From: Chitinophaga pinensis
GTDB taxonomy: Bacteria; Bacteroidota; Bacteroidia; Bacteroidales; GCA-2748055
DNA length: 64,000 bases
NCBI GenBank assembly: GCA_945863035.1
Contig: CAMAZH010000004.1
Span: 7,313 to 71,312, forward strand
Reading direction: 5' to 3'
Below, in pieces: positions 44,998 to 58,518 of this stretch. A model generated the notes under the pieces. That model did no database searches. It was given only the letters and a program-made list of their open reading frames with translations, and was not told where the DNA came from. Every line of letters begins with the position of its first letter. The stretch's first letter is position 1. Both the position numbers and the translations under genes were made by a program.

Positions 44998-45615
44998 CTA
45001 CAAACCGAGTTGACTGATAAATTGGCTCACTAAGCCTGGATAAAGAAAAATGGGGTAAATTATACCATATATCGCTCCCCAGAGATGGGCATCGTGGTTG
45101 ATGTGGTCTTTGTCTTTCCGGCCCATATAGCTGGAATATCCCAGATAGAGTATACCGAAAACGATTCCCGGCATGGGCAGAATCCCGTAAAGCAGTATTT
45201 TTTCCAGAGGGGAAAAGAAAATGCTGGTGAAAAGGACCGCCGAAACAGCCCCCGACGCCCCAACCGCAATATAGTAGGGGTCTTTCCGCTTCTTCAGGTA
45301 AGTCGTTAGGCTTGAAATCACGATAGCTGAAAAATATAAGACCAAAAAACTCACGAAACCGGATTGAATATGCCCTGCGTTTTCAAGAAAGCCGAACTCC
45401 CGCTCTACATATAATCCAAATGAAAACAGAACCACCATGTTTATCAGCAGGTGAATCCAATCGGCATGCAAAAAAGCATGCGAAACAAACCTGAAAAACT
45501 CTTTGCGCTGAGCAATACGGTAGGGCGAAAAGTCGTAACGACTCATAATTACCGGGTTCTGAAATGCAATGAATGAAACAATTGCAGTGAGAATAACCAA
45601 TGTGATTGTCACCAT
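44998..45615 (-). CDS. Rhomboid family intramembrane serine protease
   Basis: FLHADW.HL..NM, GASG, HDAHLWGA. Confidence 0.92.
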   Translation of the reverse strand: MVTITLVILTAIVSFIAFQNPVIMSRYDFSPYRIAQRKEFFRFVSHAFLHADWIHLLINMVVLFSFGLYVEREFGFLENAGHIQSGFVSFLVLYFSAIVISSLTTYLKKRKDPYYIAVGASGAVSAVLFTSIFFSPLEKILLYGILPMPGIVFGILYLGYSSYMGRKDKDHINHDAHLWGAIYGIIYPIFLYPGLVSQFISQLGL

Positions 45616-45617
45616 TA

Positions 45618-46640
45618 TCAATGTAGGATTTTAAAAATTAGCTCTTTCAACAAATCTCCGGCGTCGGTCGATGCGTTTCCATACCCTTTTGATTTAATAT
45701 CGTACTCGCGCAACATCGAAATGATCTGCAACACTTTAGACGAGTTGTAATTTCTTGCCGCGTTTTCGTATTCGGAAACAAAGAAGGGATTTACTTTCAG
45801 AGTTGCAGCTACAGTGTTTCTCGATTTATCAGTTAGGCTGTGGTACACTAAGATCTTGCTGAAAAAAAGATATAGCATCGAAAGGGTGACGGCAATATTA
45901 TTGTTTTTCTGGTTTTCGGCGAAATAGTTGATGATCTGGTTGGCTTTCAGGATATCTTTCGTTCCCAGAGCGTTTTGCAGTTCAAAGTTATTGTACTCTT
46001 TGCTGATGCCAATATTTTTCTCAATGTCTTGCGAAGTAATCGTTTTGGTATTGTCGGCCAACACAATTACAAGTTTGTCGAGTTCGTTTGAAATCCTTGA
46101 AAGATCGTTGCCCAGAAACTCGGTTAGAAGAATAGCTGCTTTGGGCTCGATTTTGTAATGCCGTTTGGCAAGGTTGTTTGAAATCCATTCGGGAATCTTG
46201 TTGTCATAAAGTTTCTTGGATTCGTAATATACTGCGTTTTCCTGAAGAGACTTGTATATAACCTTCCTTTTGTCGAGGCTTTTATACTTGTAGTTAAAGA
46301 CTAAAAGGGTTGATTTCAGGGGATTCTTGATGTAATGAATCAGATCGTCGAAGTTTTTGAGCTCCTGTGCCTCTTTCACAATCACCAACTGGTAGTTTGC
46401 CATCATGGGGAAACGGCGCGCAATATTGGTTACAGCAGCGGCGTCCGCGTCCTTACCGTAGACAACGGTTTGGTTGAACGACTTCTCCGCTTCCGTTAGC
46501 ACATTTTGCATGATATATTCGGTAAGCTTATCGATATAATAAGGCTCCTCACCGCACAAAAAATAAATGGGGCGATAGATCTTATTTTTAAGATCCTTGA
46601 ATAACTGTTCAATGCTGATGCTGGTTTGAGGACTGGCCAT
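45618..46640 (-). CDS. holA: DNA polymerase III delta subunit
   Basis: YFLCGEEPYYID, FPMM, ELDKL, IGISKEYNNFEL. Confidence 0.92.
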   Translation of the reverse strand: MASPQTSISIEQLFKDLKNKIYRPIYFLCGEEPYYIDKLTEYIMQNVLTEAEKSFNQTVVYGKDADAAAVTNIARRFPMMANYQLVIVKEAQELKNFDDLIHYIKNPLKSTLLVFNYKYKSLDKRKVIYKSLQENAVYYESKKLYDNKIPEWISNNLAKRHYKIEPKAAILLTEFLGNDLSRISNELDKLVIVLADNTKTITSQDIEKNIGISKEYNNFELQNALGTKDILKANQIINYFAENQKNNNIAVTLSMLYLFFSKILVYHSLTDKSRNTVAATLKVNPFFVSEYENAARNYNSSKVLQIISMLREYDIKSKGYGNASTDAGDLLKELIFKILH

Positions 46641-47466: not shown

Positions 47467-47934
47467 ATGAAAGCCTTAAATTTACCAACTTATTCCCTTA
47501 AAATAAAATCGGAAAACGATCTTGAGTATGTTTATGATCAGTTTCGGAAAAAATATGTTCGTTTAACACCCGAAGAATGGGTGCGACAGAATTTTTCCCA
47601 TTATCTGGTTAATGAGAAACTCTATCCCGCTTCAAGGATGATGCTTGAAAAATCCCTAAGCGTAAACAAACTTTCCAAACGTTGCGATATTCTGATTTGC
47701 AATGACAACGGGAATCCTGTGGTGATGGTCGAATGCAAATCCCCCGAAATAAAAATTGGACAGAACACCTTTGAGCAGGTTTCTATATACAACATTGCCT
47801 TTCGCGTCAAATATCTGATAATAACCAATGGCTTGCAACATTTTTGCTGCGGGGTGGATTTCGAAAGCCGCAGTGTGGATTTTCTGAGCGAGATACCTGA
47901 ATATGACAAAATCAGGAGTTCAGATTCGAACTAA
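47467..47934 (+). CDS. Stand-alone type I restriction HsdR N-terminal domain protein
   Basis: RKKYV.LTPEEWVRQ, CD...VECK (PD-D/ExK), QVSIYN, TNG. Confidence 0.85.
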   Translation: MKALNLPTYSLKIKSENDLEYVYDQFRKKYVRLTPEEWVRQNFSHYLVNEKLYPASRMMLEKSLSVNKLSKRCDILICNDNGNPVVMVECKSPEIKIGQNTFEQVSIYNIAFRVKYLIITNGLQHFCCGVDFESRSVDFLSEIPEYDKIRSSDSN

Positions 47935-48447
47935 TTGGAGGAAATACTCCGATAACCATTGTTCTCCCTTTTTTATCCAATCTTTTTTCTGCCCGGTAAT
48001 CACATAGCCCTGCTTTATAAACAGATTGAGGCTTTCCTTGTTGTCTTCGCAAATATTGCAGTACAGCTGCTTCAGCCCCAGTGTTCCAAATGCATACTCC
48101 CTGAGGCTCTCCAAAGCTTCAGTAGCAAAACCCTGATTGCGGTCCTGCTCATCACCAATGAGAATCCCAACGCCCGCTCTCTGGTTAAACGGGTCGAAAT
48201 CAAACAGGTCGATTGCGCCGATAATTGAAGCATTGGATTTCTTTTGAATAACCAGGCGAAGTTGTTTTGCTTCAAAGATATCCTGATGCGCCTGCTCCAT
48301 ATATTTTTTTAAGGTGTACTTTGAAAACGGGGTAAGCGTATTGCTTAAATGCCAAATGGCAGGGTCGTTTTCCCAGATATACAAAATATCAAGATCTTCG
48401 GGTTCAAGTGCGCGAAGCTGAATACGGGAATTCTCGAGAATCTGCAT
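47920..48447 (-). CDS. GNAT (RimJ/RimL-type) N-acetyltransferase
   Basis: LRALEPED, WEND, IDLFDFDP...RAGVGI, RNQGFA. Confidence 0.88.
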   Translation of the reverse strand: MQILENSRIQLRALEPEDLDILYIWENDPAIWHLSNTLTPFSKYTLKKYMEQAHQDIFEAKQLRLVIQKKSNASIIGAIDLFDFDPFNQRAGVGILIGDEQDRNQGFATEALESLREYAFGTLGLKQLYCNICEDNKESLNLFIKQGYVITGQKKDWIKKGEQWLSEYFLQLVRI

Positions 48448-48515
48448 AATGGACAATATTTTACGGGAGTGCAATTGAATCTTAAATAGAAACTATAAGG
48501 AAAAGTTATTCGTCT

Positions 48516-49967
48516 CTACTGATCTTCATAAAGTACGTTAAACGATTTCCCCTCAGAGGATTTGGCTTTGAAAGAGTCAGTCTTGTTATCATAGCTCACT
48601 TCAATCTTTTCATTGCTTTCACTGACTGTCAAAGTAATTGTAAATTTCTTATCGAATTTTGGATCAGTTGAAATCCGGGGAGCCGTGAAAGGAAGTATTT
48701 CCAATTTATAGATATCTTCTTTTCCGAGACCGCTATCGTCAAAAAGGGTCATGTAGGCGGTTTTCCCATTAGTTAAAGGGAAATAGCCTATGTCGTCATT
48801 AGTGGTGTTAACGGGATAGCCAAGATTGATGGCATCTTCGAATTGGTTGTATCTATTTATAAGGGAGTAAAACACATCAAATCCCCCCATGTTGAAATGC
48901 CCTTTTGAGCTAAAGAACAGGGTTTTTCCGTCACCAGACATTTGCGGGGTTTCTTCGTCAAACTCGGTGTTTATGGTCGACCCGAGGTTTTCTGCGGGTC
49001 CCCAATCACCAACTGACTGTTTTCTGGAAACAAAGATATCAAGTCCGCCAAAACTCTCGCTTCGGTTACTTGTAAAGTATAAATTTTTGCCATCGGGCGA
49101 TAGGGAGGCAAATGTTTCGTTGCTCTTTGTGTTGATGTTTTTGCTAAGGGGAATGGCTTTGCTCCAAAGATTTCCATCAAATTTGCTTACATAGATATCG
49201 CTGTTGTTGTTGTCTTGTTGTACAAGAAGCAATTCTTTGCCATCCGCGGAAAGAAAAGTTGGCCTCATATCCCCATCGGAGCCGATCTGGGGTGTGATAT
49301 TTATCGGGATGCTCCACACTCCATCGGTTTTGTGTGAGTACATGACAGCCTCATAGAATTTCTGGCTGTTCATAAACACCATGATGTTTTCATCCGACGA
49401 CAGAACAGGTGAATAATCGGATGAGGATGTGTTAACAGGAGAGCCAACATTCGTTTTGGCAAGGTTGAGAGGGGAGTCCTTAATGATTTTTGCACGCTCG
49501 CAAATTTTAATCTCGGCTTCAACAATCCTTATGTTGTATTTCTTCTCGAAATCCTTGATGCTTTTAAACCGCTCGTAACTGTCGAGCGCCTTATCGAGAT
49601 CATTGTTCATGCGGTATGCGTTGCCAAGATAAAACCAGGCATGATGCGGGGCTTTATTTTCGTCCAGGTCTTTGGGACGATACTTCATCGTGATATTCAT
49701 CACCGCCTTTTCAAGATATTCAATTGCCTTTGACTCTTGTCCCCGTATATTAAGATAGGTCATCCCGGTGCGAAAATTATAATTCGCGTTATCGGGTTGG
49801 CGTTTGGTTATCTTGAGAAAAAGAAACAAAGCTTCCTCGTATTCGCCGGTAGAAAAGAAATATTCAGCATCATCAAAAAGATCATCAATATCATCCTGAT
49901 CCTTCTGCGCATTAGCCAGGTTGAAGCTAAAAAATAGAATTCCAAGGATATAAAGTATTCTTCGCAT
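48516..49967 (-). CDS. Secreted TPR + PD40 (WD40-like) protein, no OmpA domain
   Basis: Signal peptide, TPRs, SPDGKNLYFTSNR, GGLDIF, NLGYPVNTTNDD. Confidence 0.85.
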   Translation of the reverse strand: MRRILYILGILFFSFNLANAQKDQDDIDDLFDDAEYFFSTGEYEEALFLFLKITKRQPDNANYNFRTGMTYLNIRGQESKAIEYLEKAVMNITMKYRPKDLDENKAPHHAWFYLGNAYRMNNDLDKALDSYERFKSIKDFEKKYNIRIVEAEIKICERAKIIKDSPLNLAKTNVGSPVNTSSSDYSPVLSSDENIMVFMNSQKFYEAVMYSHKTDGVWSIPINITPQIGSDGDMRPTFLSADGKELLLVQQDNNNSDIYVSKFDGNLWSKAIPLSKNINTKSNETFASLSPDGKNLYFTSNRSESFGGLDIFVSRKQSVGDWGPAENLGSTINTEFDEETPQMSGDGKTLFFSSKGHFNMGGFDVFYSLINRYNQFEDAINLGYPVNTTNDDIGYFPLTNGKTAYMTLFDDSGLGKEDIYKLEILPFTAPRISTDPKFDKKFTITLTVSESNEKIEVSYDNKTDSFKAKSSEGKSFNVLYEDQ

Positions 49968-49997
49968 AGTTTATTTGTAACCTGTACTAGATTAACA

Positions 49998-51842
49998 CTA
50001 ATTCGCCTTTAATTGTTCAGGTACAGGAACTTCCTCGATTAACAGAAGCGCTCCTCCAAGCTCAAGAATCCGGAACTCAACTCTTCTGTTAAACTTGCGG
50101 CCTTCAAGAGCATCCTTACCATCAGGGAAATTATTGATAGCGATGTTTTCGGATTCGCTGAAGCCTTTTAATTTAAGCCTGTCTGTGCTGATCCCCTTAG
50201 CGATGAGGTAATCGTTTACCGCCTTGGCACGTTTTTCGGAGAGCATCTGATTGTATGCGTAATCACCCAAAGCATCGGTGTAACCTCTGACCTCAAGGCT
50301 TAGAAGCGGGTAATCGTTAAGAGCCTTCGCCAACTCATCGAGTTTTTCTTTTGCTGTCTCAGTCAGGGAATAGCTGTCAAAACCAAAGAACACCGGCTTG
50401 ATGAAATATTTGAATGATGGGGCTTTGGGTTCTGCCACAGCAACAACTTCTTCAACAACAGGTTTCTTTTCGGGCACAACCTCGGCAACAACCTCTTCAA
50501 CAAGGGGCGTTTCCACAACAGGGGTTTCAATAACGGGCTGAACAGCGGCAACTGTCTCGTCTTGGGGTAATACCTTAATATAATAGAGGTCGCCTTCCCC
50601 AAAGCCGCTTGCATCATAAAGTGTAAGATATCCTCCCTTTTGTTGGTTGTCGGGGAAGAAAAAGAGTTCGTCGTCGGTGGTGTTTATCGGGTAAGGTAAG
50701 GCCTGCGGTGCTGACCATGATTTGTTGTCCTGCAGCTCCGAGAAAAAAACATCGTATCCTCCAATGGTTGAGTGGCCCTGGGACGAGAAGTACAAGGTTT
50801 TTCCATCTGCGCAGATAAATGGGGTTTCCTCATTGAGAGGAGTGTTGATGCTGGTACCCAAATTTACAGGGGTGGACCAATCCCCGGATTCGGAAAGTGA
50901 GGAGCTGTAAATATCCATTCCTCCTGATCCTCCAGTGCGGTTACTTGTAAAAAACAGCGTTTTACCATCGGGGGAGATGGAAGCGTGCGATTCGAAAAAT
51001 TTGGTGTTTATGTTCTTGCCCAGCGATCTGGAGGGATTCCATCGCCCCATGCTGTAGTCGCTGACAAGGATGTCGCCGTCGAAGTTGTTGATTCTTACAA
51101 GGAACAACTGCGAGCCATCGAAGGAAAGTGACGAAACATACTGGTTTCCGTCCGATTCAATCTGTGGGGTGATATTAATCGGGTTCGACCAGTTCCCGTT
51201 GATCTTTTTAACGAAAAAAGCTGCGTCATAAAATTTCTGGGCAGTCATGAAGGCCATAGAATTCTCATCCCCAGCGAGTACTCCCTGAAAGTTGTTCAAA
51301 CTGGTATTAAAACGTTTGCCCATATTTTCCTTGAAAATCGGGGATGGGTTTTTGATGGCGAGCTTAGCCCGGTTGCACGATTCAATCTGCTGGTTGGCAT
51401 ATTCGATGTCGGCAGGGCTTGGCTTAACAGCTGAGTTTATAAACGCATTGTACGATTCGATGGCTTTATCAAGCTGATTATCGATTCGGTAAGCGTTTCC
51501 AAGGTAGAGCAAGGCGTCAGCCGGCGCAAAAACCTCGTTATAGCTCCCTTCCTTATAATTTTCGGAGACATTGGTGGAGGCCTTCTCCAAATATGGGATG
51601 GCTTTTTCCTTTTGGCCGGGTATGTTCAGATAGCAAACCCCGATCCGGTAATTAATATTTGAGTTATCCTGAAAGCCTGCATTATATACTTTTTGGAAAG
51701 AAAACAAAGCTTCTGAATAATCTTCTTCCGCTAGAAAGAATTCCGCATCAAAAAAATCTTCCCTTACCAGGTCTTTTTGAGCGCTTACATAAAGAAACCC
51801 GCTAAGGATAAAGAATAAGAGAATGGATACACGTTTTTTCAT
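49998..51842 (-). CDS. TPR + PD40 + OmpA-like peptidoglycan-binding protein (PorE-like)
   Basis: Signal peptide, PD40 repeats, Val/Glu/Pro linker, FGFDS, GYTD..G...YN..LSEKRA, NRRVEF; TAAATTTG box at 51867-51874 (minus). Confidence 0.88.
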   Translation of the reverse strand: MKKRVSILLFFILSGFLYVSAQKDLVREDFFDAEFFLAEEDYSEALFSFQKVYNAGFQDNSNINYRIGVCYLNIPGQKEKAIPYLEKASTNVSENYKEGSYNEVFAPADALLYLGNAYRIDNQLDKAIESYNAFINSAVKPSPADIEYANQQIESCNRAKLAIKNPSPIFKENMGKRFNTSLNNFQGVLAGDENSMAFMTAQKFYDAAFFVKKINGNWSNPINITPQIESDGNQYVSSLSFDGSQLFLVRINNFDGDILVSDYSMGRWNPSRSLGKNINTKFFESHASISPDGKTLFFTSNRTGGSGGMDIYSSSLSESGDWSTPVNLGTSINTPLNEETPFICADGKTLYFSSQGHSTIGGYDVFFSELQDNKSWSAPQALPYPINTTDDELFFFPDNQQKGGYLTLYDASGFGEGDLYYIKVLPQDETVAAVQPVIETPVVETPLVEEVVAEVVPEKKPVVEEVVAVAEPKAPSFKYFIKPVFFGFDSYSLTETAKEKLDELAKALNDYPLLSLEVRGYTDALGDYAYNQMLSEKRAKAVNDYLIAKGISTDRLKLKGFSESENIAINNFPDGKDALEGRKFNRRVEFRILELGGALLLIEEVPVPEQLKAN

Positions 51843-52243: not shown

Positions 52244-55200
52244 CTAAGCTTCTGTCTGTTCTTTCTTTTTCTTTCTGCGAAAAAGGATAATAAGGATGAT
52301 GATAATACCGGTTAAGCCAATGGCTCCGAAACCAAACAATTTTCCCTTACCGGTGGGACGTTGAACGGAGGGTCCCTGTTCCGCCAACATCTCATTGCGG
52401 GCTTTGTCTTCCCCGGAGATAAGCAATTGGAGAATTGCATTCCAGACATCTTCCATGCTGTAGCCGAATTCAGCAGCATGTTCTGCCAGATATTTCATGA
52501 GATCCTCAATGCTTCTAATCCCTTCTTTCTCAAGATCAAGCTGATCGAGTAAGCGAGCTAAGCCCACACTTGCGAACTCCCTGAGATTGGCAATGAAGTC
52601 TTCCAGTTTTGCCCTGCCCAGCACCTTATCGATTAATTTGAAAACGTCCTCTTCGGAATAACCGTTTGCCGATGCATTATTTAACAGGTATTCAATCAAA
52701 CCCGAAACGGAGGTGATACCCGTTTCCTTCAGGTCGATATTCTGAAGGAATTCTTTAAGCGCACCGTCTGAATTTTCGATTAGCTTACCGAGAAATTTAT
52801 TCAGCGAGTTATCTGCAAGATATGTCGAAAATAACTTGTTGATTTCCGAGGCCGAAAGTTTTTTGTTTGTTGCCGACTCAGCAAGAAGGTAATCATAAAG
52901 ATCAGCTGCGGATCGAAATTCCTTAACAGGAAGTTTTGTTGAGTTGAGGATTTTATTCAGTTCGCCGAGAGAACCCGATTGCAGTGCCGGAAGAATGTCT
53001 GCTAAACGGGTATCGGTGGCTTTGAGCAACAGCCGAATCATGTTCTCTTCCTTAACGACTCCTTCGGAAGCTTTTTTCAGAAGATAGGATATGAGCTCGG
53101 AGCGATCATCAATGCCGTTAGCCTTCAAGTCCAACTTTTCAAGGTACACCTTGGTTTCTGGATCTGCCAAACGGATGAGCTTTTTAAGAAGCAGCTCAAG
53201 GTCGGTTGCAGCCGTGTAATCCTCTAAAAGTTTGTAAACATCGCCTTTTGTGTAACCAAGTTGATCTGCATTATCAAGAAGATAGCGAATAAGTTCATCG
53301 AATGATTTTATTCCTTCCTTCTCCAAATCCAGGTTTTCAAGAGTTTTTTTCAGGTTTCCGTCTGAATAAAGAATCAGCCGGTCGACAACGTCTTCAAGGT
53401 CACCCGAATATGCGAGTTTTAACAATACGTTGTTGATATCGTCCTGTGTGAAGCCGTTTCTTTCTGCCTCGGATTTCAGGTAGTCGATAAACTCCTCCCT
53501 TGACCCAAAAGAATGCTCGTTAAGATTGGTCTTCTCAAGAAACGTCTTCAAATTGCCTGTTGCGAGCGCAGCCATTTTTTGACGCAGATCTTCGATTTCA
53601 GCGATTTGGTTATATGTGTATTTTTGCAGCAGACTGTCGACTTCTTCGCTGGTGTAACCTTTCAAATCTGCATTTGCATAGATATGCGAGATTAACTCTT
53701 CGGCCGTGTAAATGTTTTCCTTCTGAAGGTCGATACTTGTAAGGAAATCTTTCAGAGCTCCCTCTTCGGATAAGGCAATAAGTTTGCCCAGAACTTCCGA
53801 TGCATCCCTGCTGACGGCCAGATTTGTCAAGGCACCAAGCACTTCAGCCTCCGTAAAAGCTTTACTGCTTGCATTGCGATACAGAGAAACGGCAAAATCC
53901 TGAGGGCTGCCGGGGGTGAGAGTCGACAAATCCAACCTTTTCAGATGCGATTTGAGTTCTCCCTCATCAGCCGAATGAATCAACTTGTTGATAAACAGAT
54001 TTTGATCGTTACTGCCATTTGATCCAACAGTTGAAAGGGCTTTTACAACATCCTCACTGGTATAGTTGTTTACATTGGAGTTCCTGACCAGATAATCCAC
54101 TGCCTGGTATGGGGTGTTGATAGCATTCGATTTGGTATCAAGTGCGGAAATGACGGTTTTCAGGTTTCCTTCCGAAGCGTTTTTCAGGTGTGCGAGAAAC
54201 TCTTCAAGATCTTTTTTGCTAATCATCTCCGTATACAAGCGATCAACATCCTGGGCACTGTAACCGAGTTTCTCCGCATTATCGTAAAGGTATTTGAATA
54301 GCTCAGTTGTGTTGGTGATGCCTTCCTTTTGCAGATCCAGGTTTTGCAAAACCTCCTTTAAGCGGCCATCTGCACGGCTGGCCAAATCATTTGTCAGAGC
54401 GTTAATGTTGTCCTGGGCAGGTTCCTTCGCATCCTTTTCCAACTCCGGGTTATCATCATCTGAGACTTTAGCCGGTGCGGTCTGATTCGAATCCTTGCCA
54501 TTGTTGTAGATAACGGTTGCGGTTTTCGTAACCCGATTGCCATCGGGATCAGTGAGACTAAACTCAATTTGGTTGGTACCGGGTTTGGGTCTGAATTCAA
54601 AGCTCTGATTGCGTCTGTCGACTTTTACCGTATCGATTTTTATCAATACGGAATCGAGATATTGCTTAACCACAATCACAGATCCCTTTTCAGCTTCATA
54701 ATCGAGTTTTACTGTTTTCCCTTTTGAAACCGTAATGAGGGAATCTTTGAGTATGAGCAACTTGTTAAGTTCGTCCTGCGACAGTTTTGCCACTACGGGA
54801 ATCAACTTAATCTGTTCGCTTAGCGTAATGCCCGAATGGGGTGTGTTCGGACTTACTTCGAGTGATTTGATCAATCGTTCAAACCGTTCGCTGTCGAAAA
54901 CCATGGAGTATTTACCCGCAGGGACGCTGAAATTGAACTTGCCCTGCTCATTGGGGTGAACCATTGCCAGGGTATCGCCTGAGCTTTGGCTTATTACGTT
55001 TATTGCGATTTCCTTACCGTCGATTTTCTGTCCCGAATAATTCAAGATGCCGCTGATGTCATACCTTCTGGGGTGGTCGGCTGTATAAACCTTGTAGCGG
55101 TAGATATCGTGCCTGCCATAACCGGTTTCCTTATAAACCGGGAAATATGCGATCTCGCCATCCCTGACCGGGCAAAAGAAAATATCGTCATCGGTAGTGT

Positions 55201-56353
55201 TCACGGGATATCCCATATTCAGAGGGGAAGCCCAGGTGTTGTCGGATTTCAGGGCAGTCATGAAAACATCATACCCTCCCATGTTGTAATGTCCGTAGGA
55301 AGAATAGAAAAGTCTGCGGCCATTCTCGGTAATGAAAGGACATTCCTCGTTATATGCGGAATTGACCAACGGTCCAAGGTTTTCTGCAGGACCCCAGTCC
55401 CCGTTTTCCTGTTTTTTGGATTTATAGATATCCAAACCACCGAATCCACCCTTTCGGTTACTTGTGAAATAGAGGGTGTTGCCGTCTTTTGTGATGGAAG
55501 CGTGCGACTCCCAGTATTTTGTGTTGATGTTCTCGTTTAACTTTACCAGGGGAGTCCAGAGCCCGTTGACAAGCTTGGAACTGTATAGATTCCCAATAAA
55601 ATCGTCGTTCCTGTAAACAAAAAGGGATGTGCCGTCATAGGAAAGCCCTGTGGGATAAACGTCCCCGTCAACGCCCAGTTCGGGGGTGATGTTCCTCGGG
55701 GGAGTCCATGCACCGTTTATGTTTTCGGTATAAAAAACGGCATCGTAGAACTGTAACTTGGAGATGAACACCATTTTTGTTTCGTCACCCGAAACGGCTG
55801 GGTTTTTGTCAGCAAAGCGGGTATTAACCTGGTTGGACAGCAATTCCACATCCATATCAATCGGCTTTTTCATGAGCTTTTCTGCAGCATCGCAGGCAGC
55901 CAGCTGTTCGAGTACCAATTGATCGTCGTAAATTTCGCTATCCATCTGCGACTGAAACTTCTTATACGATTCGCGGGCTTTATCCAGTTCATTGTTAACG
56001 CGATATGCGTTTCCCAGAAAAAAAAGCGCTTCGAGAGGAGCTCCCAATTCCTTGTAATTGCTTTCCTTATATTTTGTGTTGATATTTTTTGCCGCTTTTT
56101 CGAGGTAGAACAGCGATTTGTCCTTTTCGTAGGCATTATTCAGATAACACACACCGATTTTGTAGTAAATGTTATAATTGTCGGGATAGGTCCTGTGCAT
56201 CCGCAGGTACAAGGGCAATGCCTCATCGAATTCCTCAAACAAATAGTAGGATTCGGCAGCAAGGAAGACCTGCTTCATATCCATGGTTTGCTGGCTAAAT
56301 ACCGGAAGCAGGAGGCTGAAATAGAAAAATATCAGGCTTATTGTTTTTTTCAT
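52244..56353 (-). CDS. 1369-aa secreted TPR + PD40 + beta-sandwich + 10x helical repeat protein with C-terminal TM anchor
   Basis: Signal peptide, TPR/PD40 paralogous to neighbours, FSVPAGKYSM carboxypeptidase-regulatory-like strand, ~66-aa repeats, TM + RRKKKK. Confidence 0.88.
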   Translation of the reverse strand: MKKTISLIFFYFSLLLPVFSQQTMDMKQVFLAAESYYLFEEFDEALPLYLRMHRTYPDNYNIYYKIGVCYLNNAYEKDKSLFYLEKAAKNINTKYKESNYKELGAPLEALFFLGNAYRVNNELDKARESYKKFQSQMDSEIYDDQLVLEQLAACDAAEKLMKKPIDMDVELLSNQVNTRFADKNPAVSGDETKMVFISKLQFYDAVFYTENINGAWTPPRNITPELGVDGDVYPTGLSYDGTSLFVYRNDDFIGNLYSSKLVNGLWTPLVKLNENINTKYWESHASITKDGNTLYFTSNRKGGFGGLDIYKSKKQENGDWGPAENLGPLVNSAYNEECPFITENGRRLFYSSYGHYNMGGYDVFMTALKSDNTWASPLNMGYPVNTTDDDIFFCPVRDGEIAYFPVYKETGYGRHDIYRYKVYTADHPRRYDISGILNYSGQKIDGKEIAINVISQSSGDTLAMVHPNEQGKFNFSVPAGKYSMVFDSERFERLIKSLEVSPNTPHSGITLSEQIKLIPVVAKLSQDELNKLLILKDSLITVSKGKTVKLDYEAEKGSVIVVKQYLDSVLIKIDTVKVDRRNQSFEFRPKPGTNQIEFSLTDPDGNRVTKTATVIYNNGKDSNQTAPAKVSDDDNPELEKDAKEPAQDNINALTNDLASRADGRLKEVLQNLDLQKEGITNTTELFKYLYDNAEKLGYSAQDVDRLYTEMISKKDLEEFLAHLKNASEGNLKTVISALDTKSNAINTPYQAVDYLVRNSNVNNYTSEDVVKALSTVGSNGSNDQNLFINKLIHSADEGELKSHLKRLDLSTLTPGSPQDFAVSLYRNASSKAFTEAEVLGALTNLAVSRDASEVLGKLIALSEEGALKDFLTSIDLQKENIYTAEELISHIYANADLKGYTSEEVDSLLQKYTYNQIAEIEDLRQKMAALATGNLKTFLEKTNLNEHSFGSREEFIDYLKSEAERNGFTQDDINNVLLKLAYSGDLEDVVDRLILYSDGNLKKTLENLDLEKEGIKSFDELIRYLLDNADQLGYTKGDVYKLLEDYTAATDLELLLKKLIRLADPETKVYLEKLDLKANGIDDRSELISYLLKKASEGVVKEENMIRLLLKATDTRLADILPALQSGSLGELNKILNSTKLPVKEFRSAADLYDYLLAESATNKKLSASEINKLFSTYLADNSLNKFLGKLIENSDGALKEFLQNIDLKETGITSVSGLIEYLLNNASANGYSEEDVFKLIDKVLGRAKLEDFIANLREFASVGLARLLDQLDLEKEGIRSIEDLMKYLAEHAAEFGYSMEDVWNAILQLLISGEDKARNEMLAEQGPSVQRPTGKGKLFGFGAIGLTGIIIILIILFRRKKKKEQTEA

Positions 56354-56580: not shown

Positions 56581-58518
56581 TCAAGCCGAAAAAACGCTCC
56601 TCCAGAAAATCGAAAAATCAACATTCAGTTTGTAATCCCTGGCATATTCAATATTCAGTTTTTCTTTGGTGTCCTGATCCGGGTCGCGAAGACCTGCGGA
56701 AGGATCAAATATTCCCTTTTTTAATAAAGGCAAGCCGGTAAGATCTGTGCCTCCGCAATACCCCACCCATGTTTTTGACGACGCTAAAACCTGTGCCGCC
56801 TTTCCGATGTTTTTCCGGTATCCCTTTATAAAGGGGAGCAGAAAAGGCCAGGTAATCATAAACATAAACGAAACCCCAATATCGAAAAGCCTTTTGCTGC
56901 GCCTGTTGCGGCCCTTATCGATGGAGTTGAAATTTATCATGTAAAGATCACCGGCGGTATTTATTGAGTTGCTTCCGATTATACTCAGGCTTTCCGGGGG
57001 CGCAATTTTATACTCTACCGGAGTTCCTGTCACATCGGCCATAATCCGGATAATTTCGCGGGATGCCATATCTTTTGCACAGAATACGATTTCGTCGATC
57101 TTGTGGATTTTAACGATTTCTGCGAGCTGACCGGTATTTCCCAGATACGCGTAATCATCAGATGCGAGAGGTGATACAAAACCGGCAATGTCGGGAACGA
57201 TTTGTGTTTTGTGCAGCACATCGCTTACCCGCTGGGCCTCATCGCGAAACCCAACAATTATCATTCGCTTTTTCCGATTCAGGGCAAGCTCGTAATCGAT
57301 GAAACCTGCCGAGTGCAATATGAGCCTGTGGAAGACCAAGGTTAAAAGACCCCATAAGGTACCCAGAAGAATCAGCGCCCTCGAAAACCGGTAGGCTTCG
57401 GGTAAAAGGGCATAAAGCACCAGGATTATTACAGTCCCGATGAGATGACCGCTTATTACCTTCCATAATTTCACGGGTTTCTCATATCCCCCTGAATAAT
57501 AAATGGAAAGAAGCCAGATGAGAATATAGGAAGGAACCACAAACTGATAGAATGCCGGGGGATAATATTCCGACATATTGAACCTGAATTTTTCCCATAA
57601 GGGAACAAAAAACCAGAACCCGGCAAAAATAAGCAGAAAGTCTATCAGGGGTTGATAAACCCTTTTTACAAAGCGACGCAGAATGGCAAGGCCTGCCCGA
57701 AAATAAATTGCGAGGTTAATGAGTCTGGAAAAAGCCCGGGCATTCTTTTTCGAGAAGTGCTTCCGTGCGAAGATGAGCATGGCGTTGTAAAACACAATAA
57801 CATAGTTGATGCTGCCTTTTTTTGTGCTTTCTCCCTTGTAGTGTATTATGGTGGTTTTGGGGAAATAGTAGTTTTTATAACCTTCTTTTATCATCCGGTA
57901 AGAAAGGTCGATGTCCTCCCCGTACATAAAGAAATCCTCATCGAGCAGACCTGTTTTCTTCAAGGCCTCTGTGCGCAGAAACATAAAAGCTCCCGAAAGA
58001 ATTTCCACGGTATGCGTCTCATCCTGATCGAGGTACCCGAGGTGGTATTGTCCGAATATTTTCGATTTGGGAAAAATTCTCGCAAAACCGAAAATTTTGT
58101 AAAAGGCAACGGCGGGCGTTGGAAGAGCCCTTTTTGATTCGGGAAGGAATTTGCCTTTCCCGTCGATCATCTTCACCCCCAAGGCTCCGGCATCCGGGTG
58201 CTCATCCATAAAGGAGATGCACTTTTTGAAGGTGTCTTCCTCAATAACAGTGTCGGGGTTTAAAAGCAAACAATATTTTCCTTTTGCAATGCGCAGCGCC
58301 TGGTTGTTTGCCTTGCTAAAGCCCTCATTGTGCTTGTTTTCAATGAGCTTTACCCAGGGGAATTTCTCATGGATCATTGCGCAGGATCCGTCGACCGAGT
58401 TGTTGTCAACAACAAACACTTCCGCTTCAAACTGTCTGGATGCATTGGCAACTGCATGAAGGCACTGTTCCAGGAAATATTTGACGTTGTAGTTTACTAT
58501 GACAACTGAAAGATCCAT
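56581..58518 (-). CDS. GT2 glycosyltransferase fused to TM and sugar-transferase-like Rossmann domain
   Basis: VVDNNSVDGS, LLLNPD, FFMYGEDID, HYKGEST; TM block; IDEIVFC. Confidence 0.88.
   Translation of the reverse strand: MDLSVVIVNYNVKYFLEQCLHAVANASRQFEAEVFVVDNNSVDGSCAMIHEKFPWVKLIENKHNEGFSKANNQALRIAKGKYCLLLNPDTVIEEDTFKKCISFMDEHPDAGALGVKMIDGKGKFLPESKRALPTPAVAFYKIFGFARIFPKSKIFGQYHLGYLDQDETHTVEILSGAFMFLRTEALKKTGLLDEDFFMYGEDIDLSYRMIKEGYKNYYFPKTTIIHYKGESTKKGSINYVIVFYNAMLIFARKHFSKKNARAFSRLINLAIYFRAGLAILRRFVKRVYQPLIDFLLIFAGFWFFVPLWEKFRFNMSEYYPPAFYQFVVPSYILIWLLSIYYSGGYEKPVKLWKVISGHLIGTVIILVLYALLPEAYRFSRALILLGTLWGLLTLVFHRLILHSAGFIDYELALNRKKRMIIVGFRDEAQRVSDVLHKTQIVPDIAGFVSPLASDDYAYLGNTGQLAEIVKIHKIDEIVFCAKDMASREIIRIMADVTGTPVEYKIAPPESLSIIGSNSINTAGDLYMINFNSIDKGRNRRSKRLFDIGVSFMFMITWPFLLPFIKGYRKNIGKAAQVLASSKTWVGYCGGTDLTGLPLLKKGIFDPSAGLRDPDQDTKEKLNIEYARDYKLNVDFSIFWRSVFSA

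What the first reader, a model, noticed from the sequence alone, without database searches (positions are those of the whole stretch)
52412..54409. Ten copies of an unrecognised ~66-aa helical repeat forming a stalk above a C-terminal membrane anchor
Seen: aa ~650-1313 of the 1369-aa protein align as 10 units, consensus (D/E)G.LK..L..LDL.KEGI.S..ELI.YL..NA...GY(S/T).EDV..LL.......L..F...L...(A/S). The units are diverged at DNA level, so this is an old repeat. It replaces the OmpA domain expected after TPR-PD40-beta-sandwich and ends in a TM helix plus RRKKKK; the N-terminus is a cleavable signal peptide. Inference: an inner-membrane-anchored rod that raises a TPR/beta-propeller head across the periplasm (ruler or tether). 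I know no family matching this repeat.
Basis: partly seen in the sequence, partly recalled or inferred. Interest (0 to 1): 0.8.

Follow-up and report, generated by a model that had tools for sequence, protein, structure and literature searches.

The report
Variable helical stalk on membrane-anchored PorE-like protein
A Bacteroidales envelope protein carries ten copies of an undescribed 66-residue helical module between a PorE-like head and a membrane anchor, and its counterparts in related bacteria carry from none to twelve copies, so the module most likely acts as a spacer of adjustable length.

Summary
Gene 52244-56353 (- strand, 1369 aa) has ten tandem ~66-aa units (aa 662-1327), 17-47% identical to each other, with no repeat left at DNA level. 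Each unit is predicted as four short helices.

The unit matches no Pfam or NCBIfam model above its cut-off. It has no PDB sequence or fold match above noise.

It is rare. A profile of the unit found 193 cluster representatives among 1.84 billion. It was in 19 of 24 genomes of the window's own family, 2 of 16 other families of the order, and 0 of 400 other Bacteroidota genomes sampled.

The array lies between a PorE/CHU_0125-like head (signal peptide, TPR, PD40 propeller, two beta domains) and a single C-terminal membrane helix followed by RRKKKK. The next gene is a paralog that has an OmpA domain at that position.

The main new result concerns orthologs at the same conserved locus (GT2, A, B, C, GNAT). 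They carry 0, 4, 5, 6 or 10 units. The two zero-unit forms have a Pro/Glu/Lys-rich linker instead.

This supports a membrane-anchored spacer or tether of adjustable length. It weakens the idea of a fixed ruler. An extended shape could not be measured. I rate it a new variant of a known kind, of moderate interest.

The parts
52244..56353 (-). Gene A: 1369-aa PorE/CHU_0125-like protein with a helical-repeat stalk and a C-terminal membrane anchor
   Evidence: ORF and translation. 16 of 16 homologs of 1359-1380 aa are collinear and have 10 units.
56291..56353 (-). Signal peptide (aa 1-20/21), with cleavage before Q21/Q22
   Evidence: The sequence shows a KK n-region, a 15-aa hydrophobic core, then VFS|QQ. 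Q22 is invariant in 18 of 18 aligned orthologs. This fits the Bacteroidetes Q-rule (PMC5837995 and PMC10653852, abstracts only). No Cys, so no lipobox.
55859..56290 (-). TPR region (aa ~22-165)
   Evidence: Pfam TPR_14, TPR_2 and others, all below cut-off. Part of the NCBIfam CHU_0125_OmpA and PorE match. 66-97% identical among orthologs.
55064..55858 (-). PD40 (WD40-like) beta-propeller region (aa ~166-430)
   Evidence: Pfam PD40, E 1.6e-15, 57 bits against a cut-off of 20.9. 65-95% identical among orthologs.
54479..55063 (-). Two beta-sandwich-like domains (aa ~431-520 CRD-like; ~521-625)
   Evidence: The CHU_0125 match extends to aa 506. Weak Pfam hits NOMO_5th, DUF4369 and pulA_all-beta. 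PF13620 is listed for homolog P0013. Boundaries are inferred.
54422..54478 (-). Acidic, Pro-containing linker (aa 626-644)
   Evidence: Only 5-42% identical among orthologs, far lower than the flanking domains.
54371..54421 (-). Lead-in helix (aa 645-661), equivalent to the fourth helix of a unit
   Evidence: Aligns with the unit ends (for example q623 vs 1180-1222). Helix 6-21 of the model.
54173..54370 (-). Unit 1 (aa 662-727)
53966..54172 (-). Unit 2 (aa 728-796), diverged
53765..53965 (-). Unit 3 (aa 797-863), diverged
53561..53764 (-). Unit 4 (aa 864-931)
53363..53560 (-). Unit 5 (aa 932-997)
53165..53362 (-). Unit 6 (aa 998-1063), closest to the consensus
52967..53164 (-). Unit 7 (aa 1064-1129), diverged
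52769..52966 (-). Unit 8 (aa 1130-1195), diverged
52571..52768 (-). Unit 9 (aa 1196-1261)
52373..52570 (-). Unit 10 (aa 1262-1327). Its last helix is replaced by a juxtamembrane segment.
   Evidence: Low pLDDT after model residue 673.
52280..52339 (-). Transmembrane helix (aa 1339-1358, LFGFGAIGLTGIIIILIILF)
   Evidence: The only 19-aa window with Kyte-Doolittle mean above 1.6 (peak 2.73 at aa 1339); the next best internal window scores 1.06. Helix in the model. Hydrophobic tails ending in a basic cluster are printed for most of the 171 family proteins listed.
52247..52279 (-). Cytoplasmic basic tail RRKKKKEQTEA (aa 1359-1369)
   Evidence: Read from the sequence. The positive-inside rule is established knowledge (recalled).
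56581..58518 (-). Upstream gene: 645-aa GT2 glycosyltransferase fused to a polyprenyl glycosylphosphotransferase-like membrane region
   Evidence: Pfam Glycos_transf_2 and CoA_binding_3; NCBIfam EPS_sugtrans positions 1-278 of 445. Lies directly upstream of A in 8 of the 10 related loci examined; in the other two (L002, L019) one extra ORF lies between.
49998..51842 (-). Paralog B: TPR-PD40 head, Pro/Glu/Val-rich linker and OmpA peptidoglycan-binding domain
   Evidence: Pfam OmpA 1.3e-21 and PD40 5.3e-19. 43% identical to the A head. Downstream of A in 8 of 10 related loci.
48516..49967 (-). Paralog C: TPR-PD40 head only (483 aa), with a signal peptide and no anchor domain
   Evidence: 41% identical to the A head. 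Present in 7 of 10 related loci.
47920..48474 (-). GNAT acetyltransferase that closes the conserved block
   Evidence: Pfam Acetyltransf_3, E 1.9e-20. Syntenic in 7 of 10 related loci.

Best explanation
Gene A encodes a bitopic inner-membrane protein.

Topology (inferred from sequence): the Sec signal peptide is cleaved before Gln. The whole body lies in the periplasm. The single C-terminal helix (aa 1339-1358) sits in the inner membrane, with RRKKKK on the cytoplasmic side.

Stalk (predicted): between the anchor and a PorE/CHU_0125-like TPR + PD40-propeller head lie ten copies of a previously undescribed ~66-aa four-helix module. The module acts as a folded spacer. It holds the head at a lineage-specific distance from the inner membrane. 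In orthologs with no units, a disordered Pro/Glu/Lys-rich linker does this job.

Partners (speculative): by analogy with PorE, whose propeller contributes to binding of the outer-membrane protein PorP, the head would engage an outer-membrane or cell-wall-proximal partner. Together with paralog B (the same head on a peptidoglycan-binding OmpA domain) and paralog C (head only), A would form an envelope-bridging scaffold. This scaffold is genetically linked to a membrane glycosyltransferase and a GNAT.

Status of each step:
- Shown: the repeat, its rarity, the domain order, the conserved synteny and the 0-12 variation in unit number.
- Inferred: the topology and the spacer role.
- Speculative: the partners, and the link between inner membrane and wall or outer membrane.
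For: 1. Architecture. Signal peptide, one C-terminal membrane helix and a basic tail. A TPR/PD40 head matching CHU_0125_OmpA (E 5.4e-43) and PorE (E 2.7e-31) over aa 23-506.

2. Structure. The region is predicted all-helical, four helices per unit: mean pLDDT 78.8 for aa 640-1369 and 87.4 for aa 645-796.

3. Conserved positions. Across 388 units they are hydrophobic core positions plus Gly and S/T-x-x-E/D positions at helix starts. I read the latter as helix caps, which is an interpretation. No polar cluster suggests an active or ligand site.

4. Orthologs at the same locus (GT2, A, B, C, GNAT) differ in unit number:
- 10 units: L001, L002, L020, and L017 (split into 8 + 2)
- 6 units: L021
- 5 units: L019
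- 4 units: L018
- 0 units: L023 and L024, which have a ~70-80-aa P/E/K-rich linker before the same kind of membrane helix and basic tail.

5. Family-wide lengths. Among 69 apparently full-length family proteins, the distance from head to membrane helix is quantised in ~66-aa steps, giving 2-12 units.

6. Selection. The stalk is under purifying selection and each unit keeps its position. It is 32-90% identical among orthologs, against 5-42% for the linker and 65-97% for TPR/PD40.

7. Paralogs. The adjacent paralog B has an OmpA domain at the equivalent position.

8. Precedent. [quoted passage not shown]
Against: - No coordinates were available, so an extended shape is not demonstrated. A compact superhelical packing of the ten units is not excluded.
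- No localisation or topology experiment exists. No dedicated signal-peptide or topology predictor was available.
- Variation from 0 to 12 units shows the stalk is not essential to the protein's core role. It argues against a fixed measuring function.
- In one same-genus genome (G003) the gene is truncated to 530 aa, without stalk or anchor. In G017 it is split into two ORFs. Either the protein is dispensable there or these are assembly errors.
- A terminator-like hairpin and a ~400-bp gap separate A from B. Co-transcription with B and C is therefore not implied.
- The unit also occurs in proteins that have neither this head nor this anchor: a 2108-aa Candidatus Omnitrophus magneticus protein with 19 units, and Laminin_G_3- or GT2-containing giants. 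It is thus a general-purpose module and may have a binding role that I cannot see.
Confidence: 0.55

Rival explanations
1. The units are binding modules rather than a passive spacer. Each ~66-aa bundle would bind a partner such as a glycan chain, peptidoglycan or copies of a periplasmic protein. The array would then be a multivalent scaffold, perhaps for the product of the adjacent glycosyltransferase.
For: - Each unit keeps its position and identity among orthologs (32-90%). This is more constraint than a mere spacer needs.
- The unit occurs in unrelated large proteins with lectin-like (Laminin_G_3) or GT2 domains.
- A GT2 gene lies upstream in all 10 related loci examined.
- Weak sequence likeness of unit positions 34-63 to the UBA-like N-terminal domain of Regnase-1 (2n5j_A, E 0.0032). 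Single-unit hits to UBA_DHX29 (E 0.0044) and UBA_NBR1_C (E 0.048), each in 1 of 10 units.
Against: - The conserved positions are core or cap positions, with no conserved surface patch.
- Orthologs with zero units exist in the same gene block.
- The fold searches listed no UBA domain among the top 50. All matches were in the noise range: best Z 6.7 and 5.3, both to a designed protein.
Confidence: 0.2
2. The C-terminal hydrophobic helix plus basic cluster is a sorting signal of the exosortase/rhombosortase kind. It would be cleaved, so that the protein is released or re-attached elsewhere rather than staying anchored in the inner membrane.
For: - The shape of the tail (short Gly-containing segment, hydrophobic helix, Arg/Lys cluster at the very C-terminus) resembles such signals. 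This resemblance is recalled, not tested.
- NCBIfam GG_III-CTERM gives a faint hit (E 0.3, 11 bits against a cut-off of 22).
- A rhomboid-family gene with a sub-threshold rhombosortase hit (37.7 bits against 84) lies 7 kb away. It is syntenic in relatives.
Against: - The hit is below cut-off.
- Only 8 of 2376 ORFs of 200 aa or more in this genome end in a comparable tail. The other seven share no motif, and their tails look like those of ordinary membrane proteins. There is therefore no substrate family.
- Housekeeping genes (AMP nucleosidase, holA) lie between A and the rhomboid gene.
- No motif is conserved upstream of the helix among orthologs; the tail region is 20-65% identical.
Confidence: 0.07
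3. The loop between helices 1 and 2 (D-L-x-K-E-G-I-x-S-x-x-E-L) is a degenerate EF-hand. The stalk would then be a calcium-binding or calcium-stiffened rod.
For: - Asp, Gly, Ser/Thr and Glu fall at loop positions 1, 6, 9 and 12 as counted from memory of the EF-hand pattern.
- Pfam EF-hand_9 reaches 46.3 bits (cut-off 37) on the 19-unit Omnitrophus protein.
- The stalk is strongly acidic, with net charge -40.
Against: - The EF-hand_9 score is a sum of weak partial hits; 0 stretches pass on their own.
- EF-hand_9 does not hit the window's protein or any single unit.
- Loop positions 3 and 5 are not conserved as ligands, and the hydrophobic residue sits at position 7 instead of 8.
- The only EF-hand entry among the top 50 fold matches is a Miro EF-hand/GTPase entry (4c0j_A), with Z 4.3, within noise.
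Confidence: 0.04

Closest known systems
PorE (PGN_1296), type IX secretion component of Porphyromonas gingivalis
   Same: The head has the same domain order: signal peptide, TPR, PD40/WD40 propeller, CRD-like beta domain. NCBIfam PorE gives E 2.7e-31 over aa 97-423. It is periplasmic. The head is presumed to be a protein-interaction scaffold (PMC12773672, abstract and passages).
   Different: - PorE is an outer-membrane-associated lipoprotein ending in a peptidoglycan-binding OmpA_C-like domain that is essential for its function (PMC7192894, abstract start in the search listing; PMC12773672, abstract and passages).
- This protein has no lipobox Cys and no OmpA domain.
- It scores 108.6 bits against a cut-off of 600.
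- It ends in ten helical units plus a membrane helix.
- The genome has its own PorE elsewhere (G000:C209, 712.6 bits).
CHU_0125 family OmpA-like outer-membrane integrity protein (Cytophaga hutchinsonii 'Pal')
   Same: This is the best-scoring curated family for aa 23-506 (E 5.4e-43). It has a TPR + PD40 head and an envelope-integrity role (PMC5891637, passages).
   Different: The score is 147.4 bits against a cut-off of 620. CHU_0125 ends in an OmpA_C-like domain and is 656 aa long. No helical stalk or membrane helix is described for it.
TolA (Tol-Pal system) and PorM/GldM (type IX secretion): inner-membrane-anchored proteins with long periplasmic shafts
   Same: Functional analogy only. All have a single membrane anchor and an elongated periplasmic part that carries an interaction domain toward the wall or outer membrane. 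The gene block also combines a PD40 propeller (as in TolB) and an OmpA-like domain (as in Pal). The properties of TolA and PorM are recalled; Tol-Pal composition is from PMC5891637 passages.
   Different: The anchor here is C-terminal, not N-terminal. The stalk consists of discrete four-helix units. No sequence or fold similarity was found. No TolQR- or PorL-like motor gene was seen among the flanking genes scanned.
Spectrin-type rods (tandem helical bundles joined by continuous helices)
   Same: Tandem small helical bundles. In the two-unit model one 27-residue helix runs from one unit into the next (H56-82). In the long model units 4 and 6 show the same feature (H263-291 and H397-423).
   Different: Units are 66 aa with four helices, against ~106 aa with three helices in spectrin (recalled). 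No match appeared in the fold searches. In most units of the long model the joining helix is broken.
UBA-like three-helix domains (e.g. Regnase-1 N-terminal domain, 2n5j)
   Same: A shared local sequence pattern, G-[YF]-[ST]-x-[ED]-[DE]-[VI]-x2-L-L ... L-x3-L. The profile hit has E 0.0032 over unit positions 34-63.
   Different: The hit covers only half a unit. It is marginal and is not backed by the fold searches. Pfam UBA models hit only 1 of 10 units each.

Membership tests
PorE family (NCBIfam NF052230) | Whole-protein score at or above the curated cut-off (600 bits) | tested here: not met
   108.6 bits. The genome's true PorE scores 712.6 bits at G000:C209.
PorE family (NCBIfam NF052230) | [quoted passage not shown] | tested here: not met
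   No OmpA hit in Pfam at E<=1. Paralog B has one, E 1.3e-21.
PorE family (NCBIfam NF052230) | TPR + beta-propeller + CRD head | tested here: met
   PD40 scores 57 bits (cut-off 20.9). TPR hits are sub-threshold. The model is matched over positions 83-419 of 648.
PorE family (NCBIfam NF052230) | Lipoprotein signal peptide (lipobox Cys) | tested here: not met
   There is no Cys in aa 1-30, and the signal peptide ends VFS|QQ. That PorE is a lipoprotein is from the abstract start of PMC7192894 in the search listing.
CHU_0125 family OmpA-like protein (NCBIfam NF053607) | Score at or above 620 bits and full-length match including the OmpA region | tested here: not met
   147.4 bits. Only positions 21-500 of the 639-position model are matched.
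Any Pfam or NCBIfam family for the 66-aa unit | A hit above the curated cut-off within aa 645-1327, or consistent hits across units | tested here: not met
   The best hit in the region is DUF5333, 24.2 bits against a cut-off of 27. For single units, 12 families were each hit by 1 of 10 units, best E 0.0021. NCBIfam gave nothing in the region below E 0.07.
UBA-like domain | Compact three-helix bundle fold with the conserved loop | tested here: inconclusive
   Profile against PDB sequences: 2n5j_A, E 0.0032, covering half a unit. No UBA structure was listed in the two wide fold searches, which does not exclude the fold.
EF-hand | Canonical 12-residue loop with ligands at positions 1, 3, 5 and 12 and a hydrophobic residue at 8 (pattern recalled) | tested here: inconclusive
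   Positions 1, 6, 9 and 12 fit. Positions 3 and 5 are variable, and Ile sits at position 7. The Pfam EF-hand_9 hit occurs only as a summed score on the 19-unit protein P0015.
C-terminal sorting signals (GlyGly-CTERM / GG_III-CTERM type) | Model hit above cut-off, and a family of substrates with the same tail in the genome | tested here: not met
   NF041738 scores 11 bits against a cut-off of 22. 8 of 2376 ORFs have a comparable tail, with no shared motif.
Type IX secretion cargo (C-terminal beta-sandwich CTD) | C-terminal CTD domain | tested here: not met
   The C-terminus is helical units plus a membrane helix. No CTD family appeared in Pfam or NCBIfam.

The most novel reading that the evidence does not exclude
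The 66-aa unit is a new domain family that bacteria use as a modular periplasmic 'stilt'. By gaining or losing whole units (0, 2-8, 10, 12), lineages of one Bacteroidales family would tune how far a PorE-like head stands from the inner membrane. This would create a Tol-Pal-independent link between inner membrane, cell wall and outer membrane. Its length would track, or set, the local geometry of the envelope. If so, unit number should co-vary with periplasmic width or with the position of the peptidoglycan layer across genera.
Probability: 0.25. Interest if true: 0.7.

Novelty: new variant of a known kind. Interest (0 to 1): 0.5.

Why it matters
PorE-like TPR/propeller proteins are known as outer-membrane-associated, peptidoglycan-binding parts of the Bacteroidota envelope. 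Here the same head is attached to the inner membrane instead, through a helical module that is in no domain library searched here.

Nature has already made the deletion series. Orthologs in the same gene block have 0 to 10 units (0, 4, 5, 6, 10), and the wider family reaches 12. This gives a ready-made system for asking whether distance across the periplasm matters for an envelope scaffold.

It also adds a new small helical repeat to the catalogue of building blocks for long extracytoplasmic proteins. The same unit occurs 19 times in a Candidatus Omnitrophus magneticus protein.

The organisms are uncultured Bacteroidales known from metagenome-assembled genomes, so the immediate impact is on annotation and structural genomics rather than physiology.

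Tried and rejected
- Fold searches. Foldseek against PDB gave 0 matches at E<=0.001 for both models (best E 0.045 and 1.2). VIA-align against 48,161 chains gave best Z 6.7 and 5.3, both to a designed cage protein. This is below the level the tool itself calls noise for helical proteins. No fold assignment was made.

- ESM Atlas by features on aa 645-1330: no usable hit, and no structure held.

- Complex prediction on the A head (aa 21-432) against the B head (aa 22-432), each with its own alignment: no verdict. The score was 0.00 against a mark of 0.32, and the controls were not run. It counts neither for nor against binding.

- The search for related loci with alignment A2 failed because no stretch was conserved enough. 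Repeated with the single protein, it gave 2 loci.

- Summed Pfam hits on the 19-unit protein (EF-hand_9, DUF7070, CheR_N, DUF5333) were rejected as repeat-summation artefacts. None has a stretch that passes on its own.

- Sorting-signal idea: a genome-wide scan for similar C-terminal tails found no substrate family.

- Processive-synthase idea for the upstream GT2: I saw no QxxRW motif on reading the sequence (the motif is recalled). I did not pursue a synthase-dependent exopolysaccharide secretion model.

- Measuring the rod length: model coordinates are not exposed to the script box, so this was not possible.

- Literature: a full-text search for PD40 + TPR + inner membrane + Bacteroidetes + periplasmic + helical repeat (at least 5 of 6 terms) returned only the CHU_0125 paper. 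The PorE search listed no paper on a membrane-anchored PorE-like protein. This is no proof that none exists. Supplements were closed.
Full report
**1. The gene and the repeat**

The finding lies in one ORF, window 52244-56353 on the - strand, 1369 aa. The given coordinates correspond to aa 649-1314.

I cut the protein into 66-aa windows every 22 aa from aa 601 and BLASTed each against the whole protein. This gave 182 off-diagonal matches at E<=1e-3, the best at 9.6e-18, all in register with a period of 66-69 aa.

Ten units start at aa 662, 728, 797, 864, 932, 998, 1064, 1130, 1196 and 1262. They are 17-47% identical to each other. Units 1, 4, 6, 9 and 10 are close to the consensus. Units 2, 3, 7 and 8 are diverged but still significant. 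A 17-aa helix before unit 1 (aa 645-661) matches the last helix of a unit.

At DNA level, Tandem Repeats Finder reports nothing. Only 15-39-nt fragments recur.

**2. Structure**

AlphaFold2 with an alignment of 16 orthologs predicts aa 640-1369 as all-helical (mean pLDDT 78.8, pTM 0.48). Each unit has four helices of 9-13 residues:
- helix 1 (G-x-L-K-x2-L-x2-L)
- a 10-residue loop (D-L-x-K-E-G-I-x-S)
- helix 2 (E-L-I-x-Y-L-x2-N-A)
- an 8-residue loop ending G-Y-[ST]
- helix 3 (E-D-V-x2-L-L)
- helix 4 (L-x2-F-x3-L)

The terminal helix, model residues 703-729, covers the hydrophobic segment.

A separate model of aa 645-796 reaches pLDDT 87.4 and pTM 0.57. It joins helix 3 of unit 1 and the following helix into one 27-residue helix. 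Units 4 and 6 of the long model do the same.

High local confidence with a low pTM is what elongated multi-domain arrays usually give. That is an inference.

**3. Is the unit a known family?**

It is not in any library I could search.
- Pfam: the best hit in the region is DUF5333, 24.2 bits against a cut-off of 27.
- Units scanned singly hit 12 different families, each in 1 of 10 units, best E 0.0021.
- NCBIfam gave nothing in the region.
- A profile of the ten units against all PDB sequences gave at best E 0.0032. That hit is to the UBA-like N-terminal domain of Regnase-1 and covers half a unit.
- Foldseek against PDB found nothing at E<=0.001 for either model.
- An exhaustive structural alignment against 48,161 chains peaked at Z 6.7 and 5.3 on a designed protein. 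The tool's own guidance treats this as noise for helical proteins.
- The ESM Atlas gave no usable hit.

Across 388 units from 124 proteins, the conserved positions are hydrophobic core residues plus Gly and [ST]-x-x-[ED] positions at helix starts. I read the latter as capping boxes. I see no conserved polar cluster that would indicate catalysis or a ligand site.

**4. Distribution**

The unit profile was scored against 1.84 billion cluster representatives. It found 193 proteins at E<=1e-3, 127 at E<=1e-10 and 45 at E<=1e-30.

I examined 171 proteins (the 150 listed by that search plus earlier hits). Most have the same plan: a ~620-aa head, then units, then a hydrophobic helix and an Arg/Lys cluster. 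Many of the rest are contig fragments.

Exceptions without this head or anchor:
- a 2108-aa Candidatus Omnitrophus magneticus protein with 19 very regular units
- proteins of 1633 and 2430 aa with Laminin_G_3 domains
- a 3006-aa protein with a GT2 domain

In whole genomes the unit was found in:
- 22 of 41 close relatives including the window's genome
- 19 of 24 genomes of its own family
- 2 of 16 other families of the order
- 0 of 400 other genomes drawn evenly from the phylum at E<=1e-5

Named relatives are Bacteroidales/Bacteroidetes metagenome-assembled genomes. In the window's own 4.19-Mb genome the stalk is unique, while the head has at least eight paralogs.

**5. Context**

The head (aa 23-506) matches the NCBIfam models CHU_0125_OmpA (E 5.4e-43, 147 bits, cut-off 620) and PorE (E 2.7e-31, 109 bits, cut-off 600), and Pfam PD40. 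It is a relative of both families but a member of neither. The genome's true PorE is elsewhere (712.6 bits).

Three paralogous heads stand in tandem:
- A, this protein
- B (49998-51842), which has a head, a Pro/Glu/Val linker and an OmpA domain
- C (48516-49967), which is a head only

They are flanked upstream by a 645-aa GT2 fused to a polyprenyl glycosylphosphotransferase-like membrane region, and downstream by a GNAT.

I examined ten related loci:
- GT2 lies upstream of A in 10 of 10. It is directly adjacent in 8; in L002 and L019 one extra ORF lies between.
- B follows A in 8 of 10.
- C is present in 7 of 10.

The misses are a contig end (L018), a locus without B and C where A is split in two ORFs (L017), and a scaffold gap (L022).

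A ~400-bp gap and a weak terminator-like hairpin follow A. A may therefore be transcribed on its own.

**6. The key comparative result**

Unit number differs among orthologs that sit in the same gene block:
- 10 units in the window's genus (4 of 5 genomes), in L001, L002 and L020, and in L017 (split into 8 + 2)
- 6 in L021
- 5 in L019
- 4 in L018
- 0 in two genomes of the same family, G008 and G015

In G008 and G015, A is 727 and 704 aa long. The head is followed by a ~70-80-aa Pro/Glu/Lys-rich segment and then the same kind of membrane helix and basic tail.

Among 69 apparently full-length family proteins, the head-to-helix distance falls into steps of ~66 aa, corresponding to 2-12 units. The classes at 4, 6, 7, 10 and 12 are well populated. 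Three rows in that table (P0079, P0081, P0128) have misplaced head ends and should be ignored.

Within the ten-unit group, all 16 homologs of 1359-1380 aa keep ten units in the same order. The stalk is 32-90% identical among orthologs. That is slower-evolving than the linker (5-42%), similar to the two beta domains, and faster-evolving than TPR/PD40 (65-97%).

**7. Interpretation**

The signal peptide ends VFS|QQ, and Q22 is invariant in 18 of 18 orthologs. This fits the Bacteroidetes rule that signal peptidase I exposes an N-terminal Gln (PMC5837995 and PMC10653852, abstracts only).

There is one membrane helix, at the C-terminus, followed by RRKKKK. The simplest topology is a periplasmic body anchored in the inner membrane by its C-terminus.

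Three facts point to a spacer or tether. A folded helical array sits exactly where zero-unit orthologs have a disordered linker. It varies by whole units between genera. Its conserved residues are structural.

The same facts speak against a fixed ruler. They also show that the array is not needed for the core function of the protein.

What the head holds is unknown. In PorE the propeller contributes to binding the outer-membrane protein PorP, and the OmpA domain binds peptidoglycan (PMC12773672, abstract and passages). By analogy, A could link the inner membrane to the same kind of partner that B links to the wall. I consider this plausible but unproven.

The one complex prediction I ran gave no verdict (see Tried and rejected).

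**8. Rivals**

- A multivalent binding scaffold is the most serious rival. The unit's positional conservation and its presence in unrelated giant proteins speak for it. The zero-unit orthologs and the lack of a conserved surface speak against it.
- A cleaved sorting signal is unlikely. There is no model hit above cut-off and no family of similar tails in the genome.
- A calcium-binding EF-hand-like loop is unlikely. Only partial pattern agreement exists, and the only Pfam support is a summed score on the 19-unit protein.

**9. Verdict**

- The anchor topology, the replacement of OmpA and the absence of a known family all hold.
- 'Rod' is untested.
- 'Ruler' is weakened in favour of an adjustable tether.

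The protein is a new variant of the PorE/CHU_0125 kind. It carries an undescribed helical repeat domain that is largely confined to one uncultured Bacteroidales family. Interest is moderate.

Noticed in passing
window 56581-58518 (-): A 645-aa fusion. It has an N-terminal GT2 glycosyltransferase, then membrane helices and a CoA_binding_3 domain like the N-terminal two-thirds of WcaJ-type polyprenyl glycosylphosphotransferases, and a shortened C-terminal remnant. It lies upstream of gene A in all 10 related loci examined (directly adjacent in 8).
   Followed up: partly
window 48516-51842 (-): Two further paralogs of the TPR-PD40 head stand in tandem after gene A. One carries an OmpA domain behind a Pro/Glu/Val-rich linker (B). 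The other has no anchor domain (C). Together the three show the same head on three different attachments.
   Followed up: partly
P0015 (2108 aa, Candidatus Omnitrophus magneticus, OMAG_001741): This protein has 19 very regular copies of the same unit in another phylum. It has no TPR/PD40 head and no C-terminal membrane helix. The units are flanked by a beta-rich, Tyr/Asp-rich repeat region. It is the best hit of the unit profile (E 1.3e-249). The direction of any gene transfer is unknown.
   Followed up: partly
P0099, P0118, P0113 (profile-search hits): Two or three units each occur inside giant proteins (1633-3006 aa) that carry Laminin_G_3 lectin-like domains or a GT2 domain. The unit is therefore a mobile module, not tied to the PorE-like head.
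   Followed up: partly
L022 (G003:C38), L017 (G017:C6): In one genome of the same genus, gene A stops after 530 aa, with no second beta domain, stalk or anchor. In another genome of the family it is split into ORFs of 1197 and 167 aa (8 + 2 units). Real decay and assembly error were not distinguished.
   Followed up: no
G000:C40:4181-7396 (-), locus L011: Another long open frame (1335 aa) in the same genome combines a PorE-like head with an OmpA-like region. What fills its extra ~600 aa was not examined.
   Followed up: no
window 44998-45621 (-): A rhomboid-family protease gene with a sub-threshold rhombosortase hit (37.7 bits against a cut-off of 84). It is syntenic with the block in relatives. 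I found no evidence that it acts on gene A's C-terminus.
   Followed up: partly
G000:C209:130-2058 (+), locus L009: The genome's true PorE ortholog (712.6 bits, above the 600-bit cut-off). This indicates that a type IX secretion component is present.
   Followed up: no
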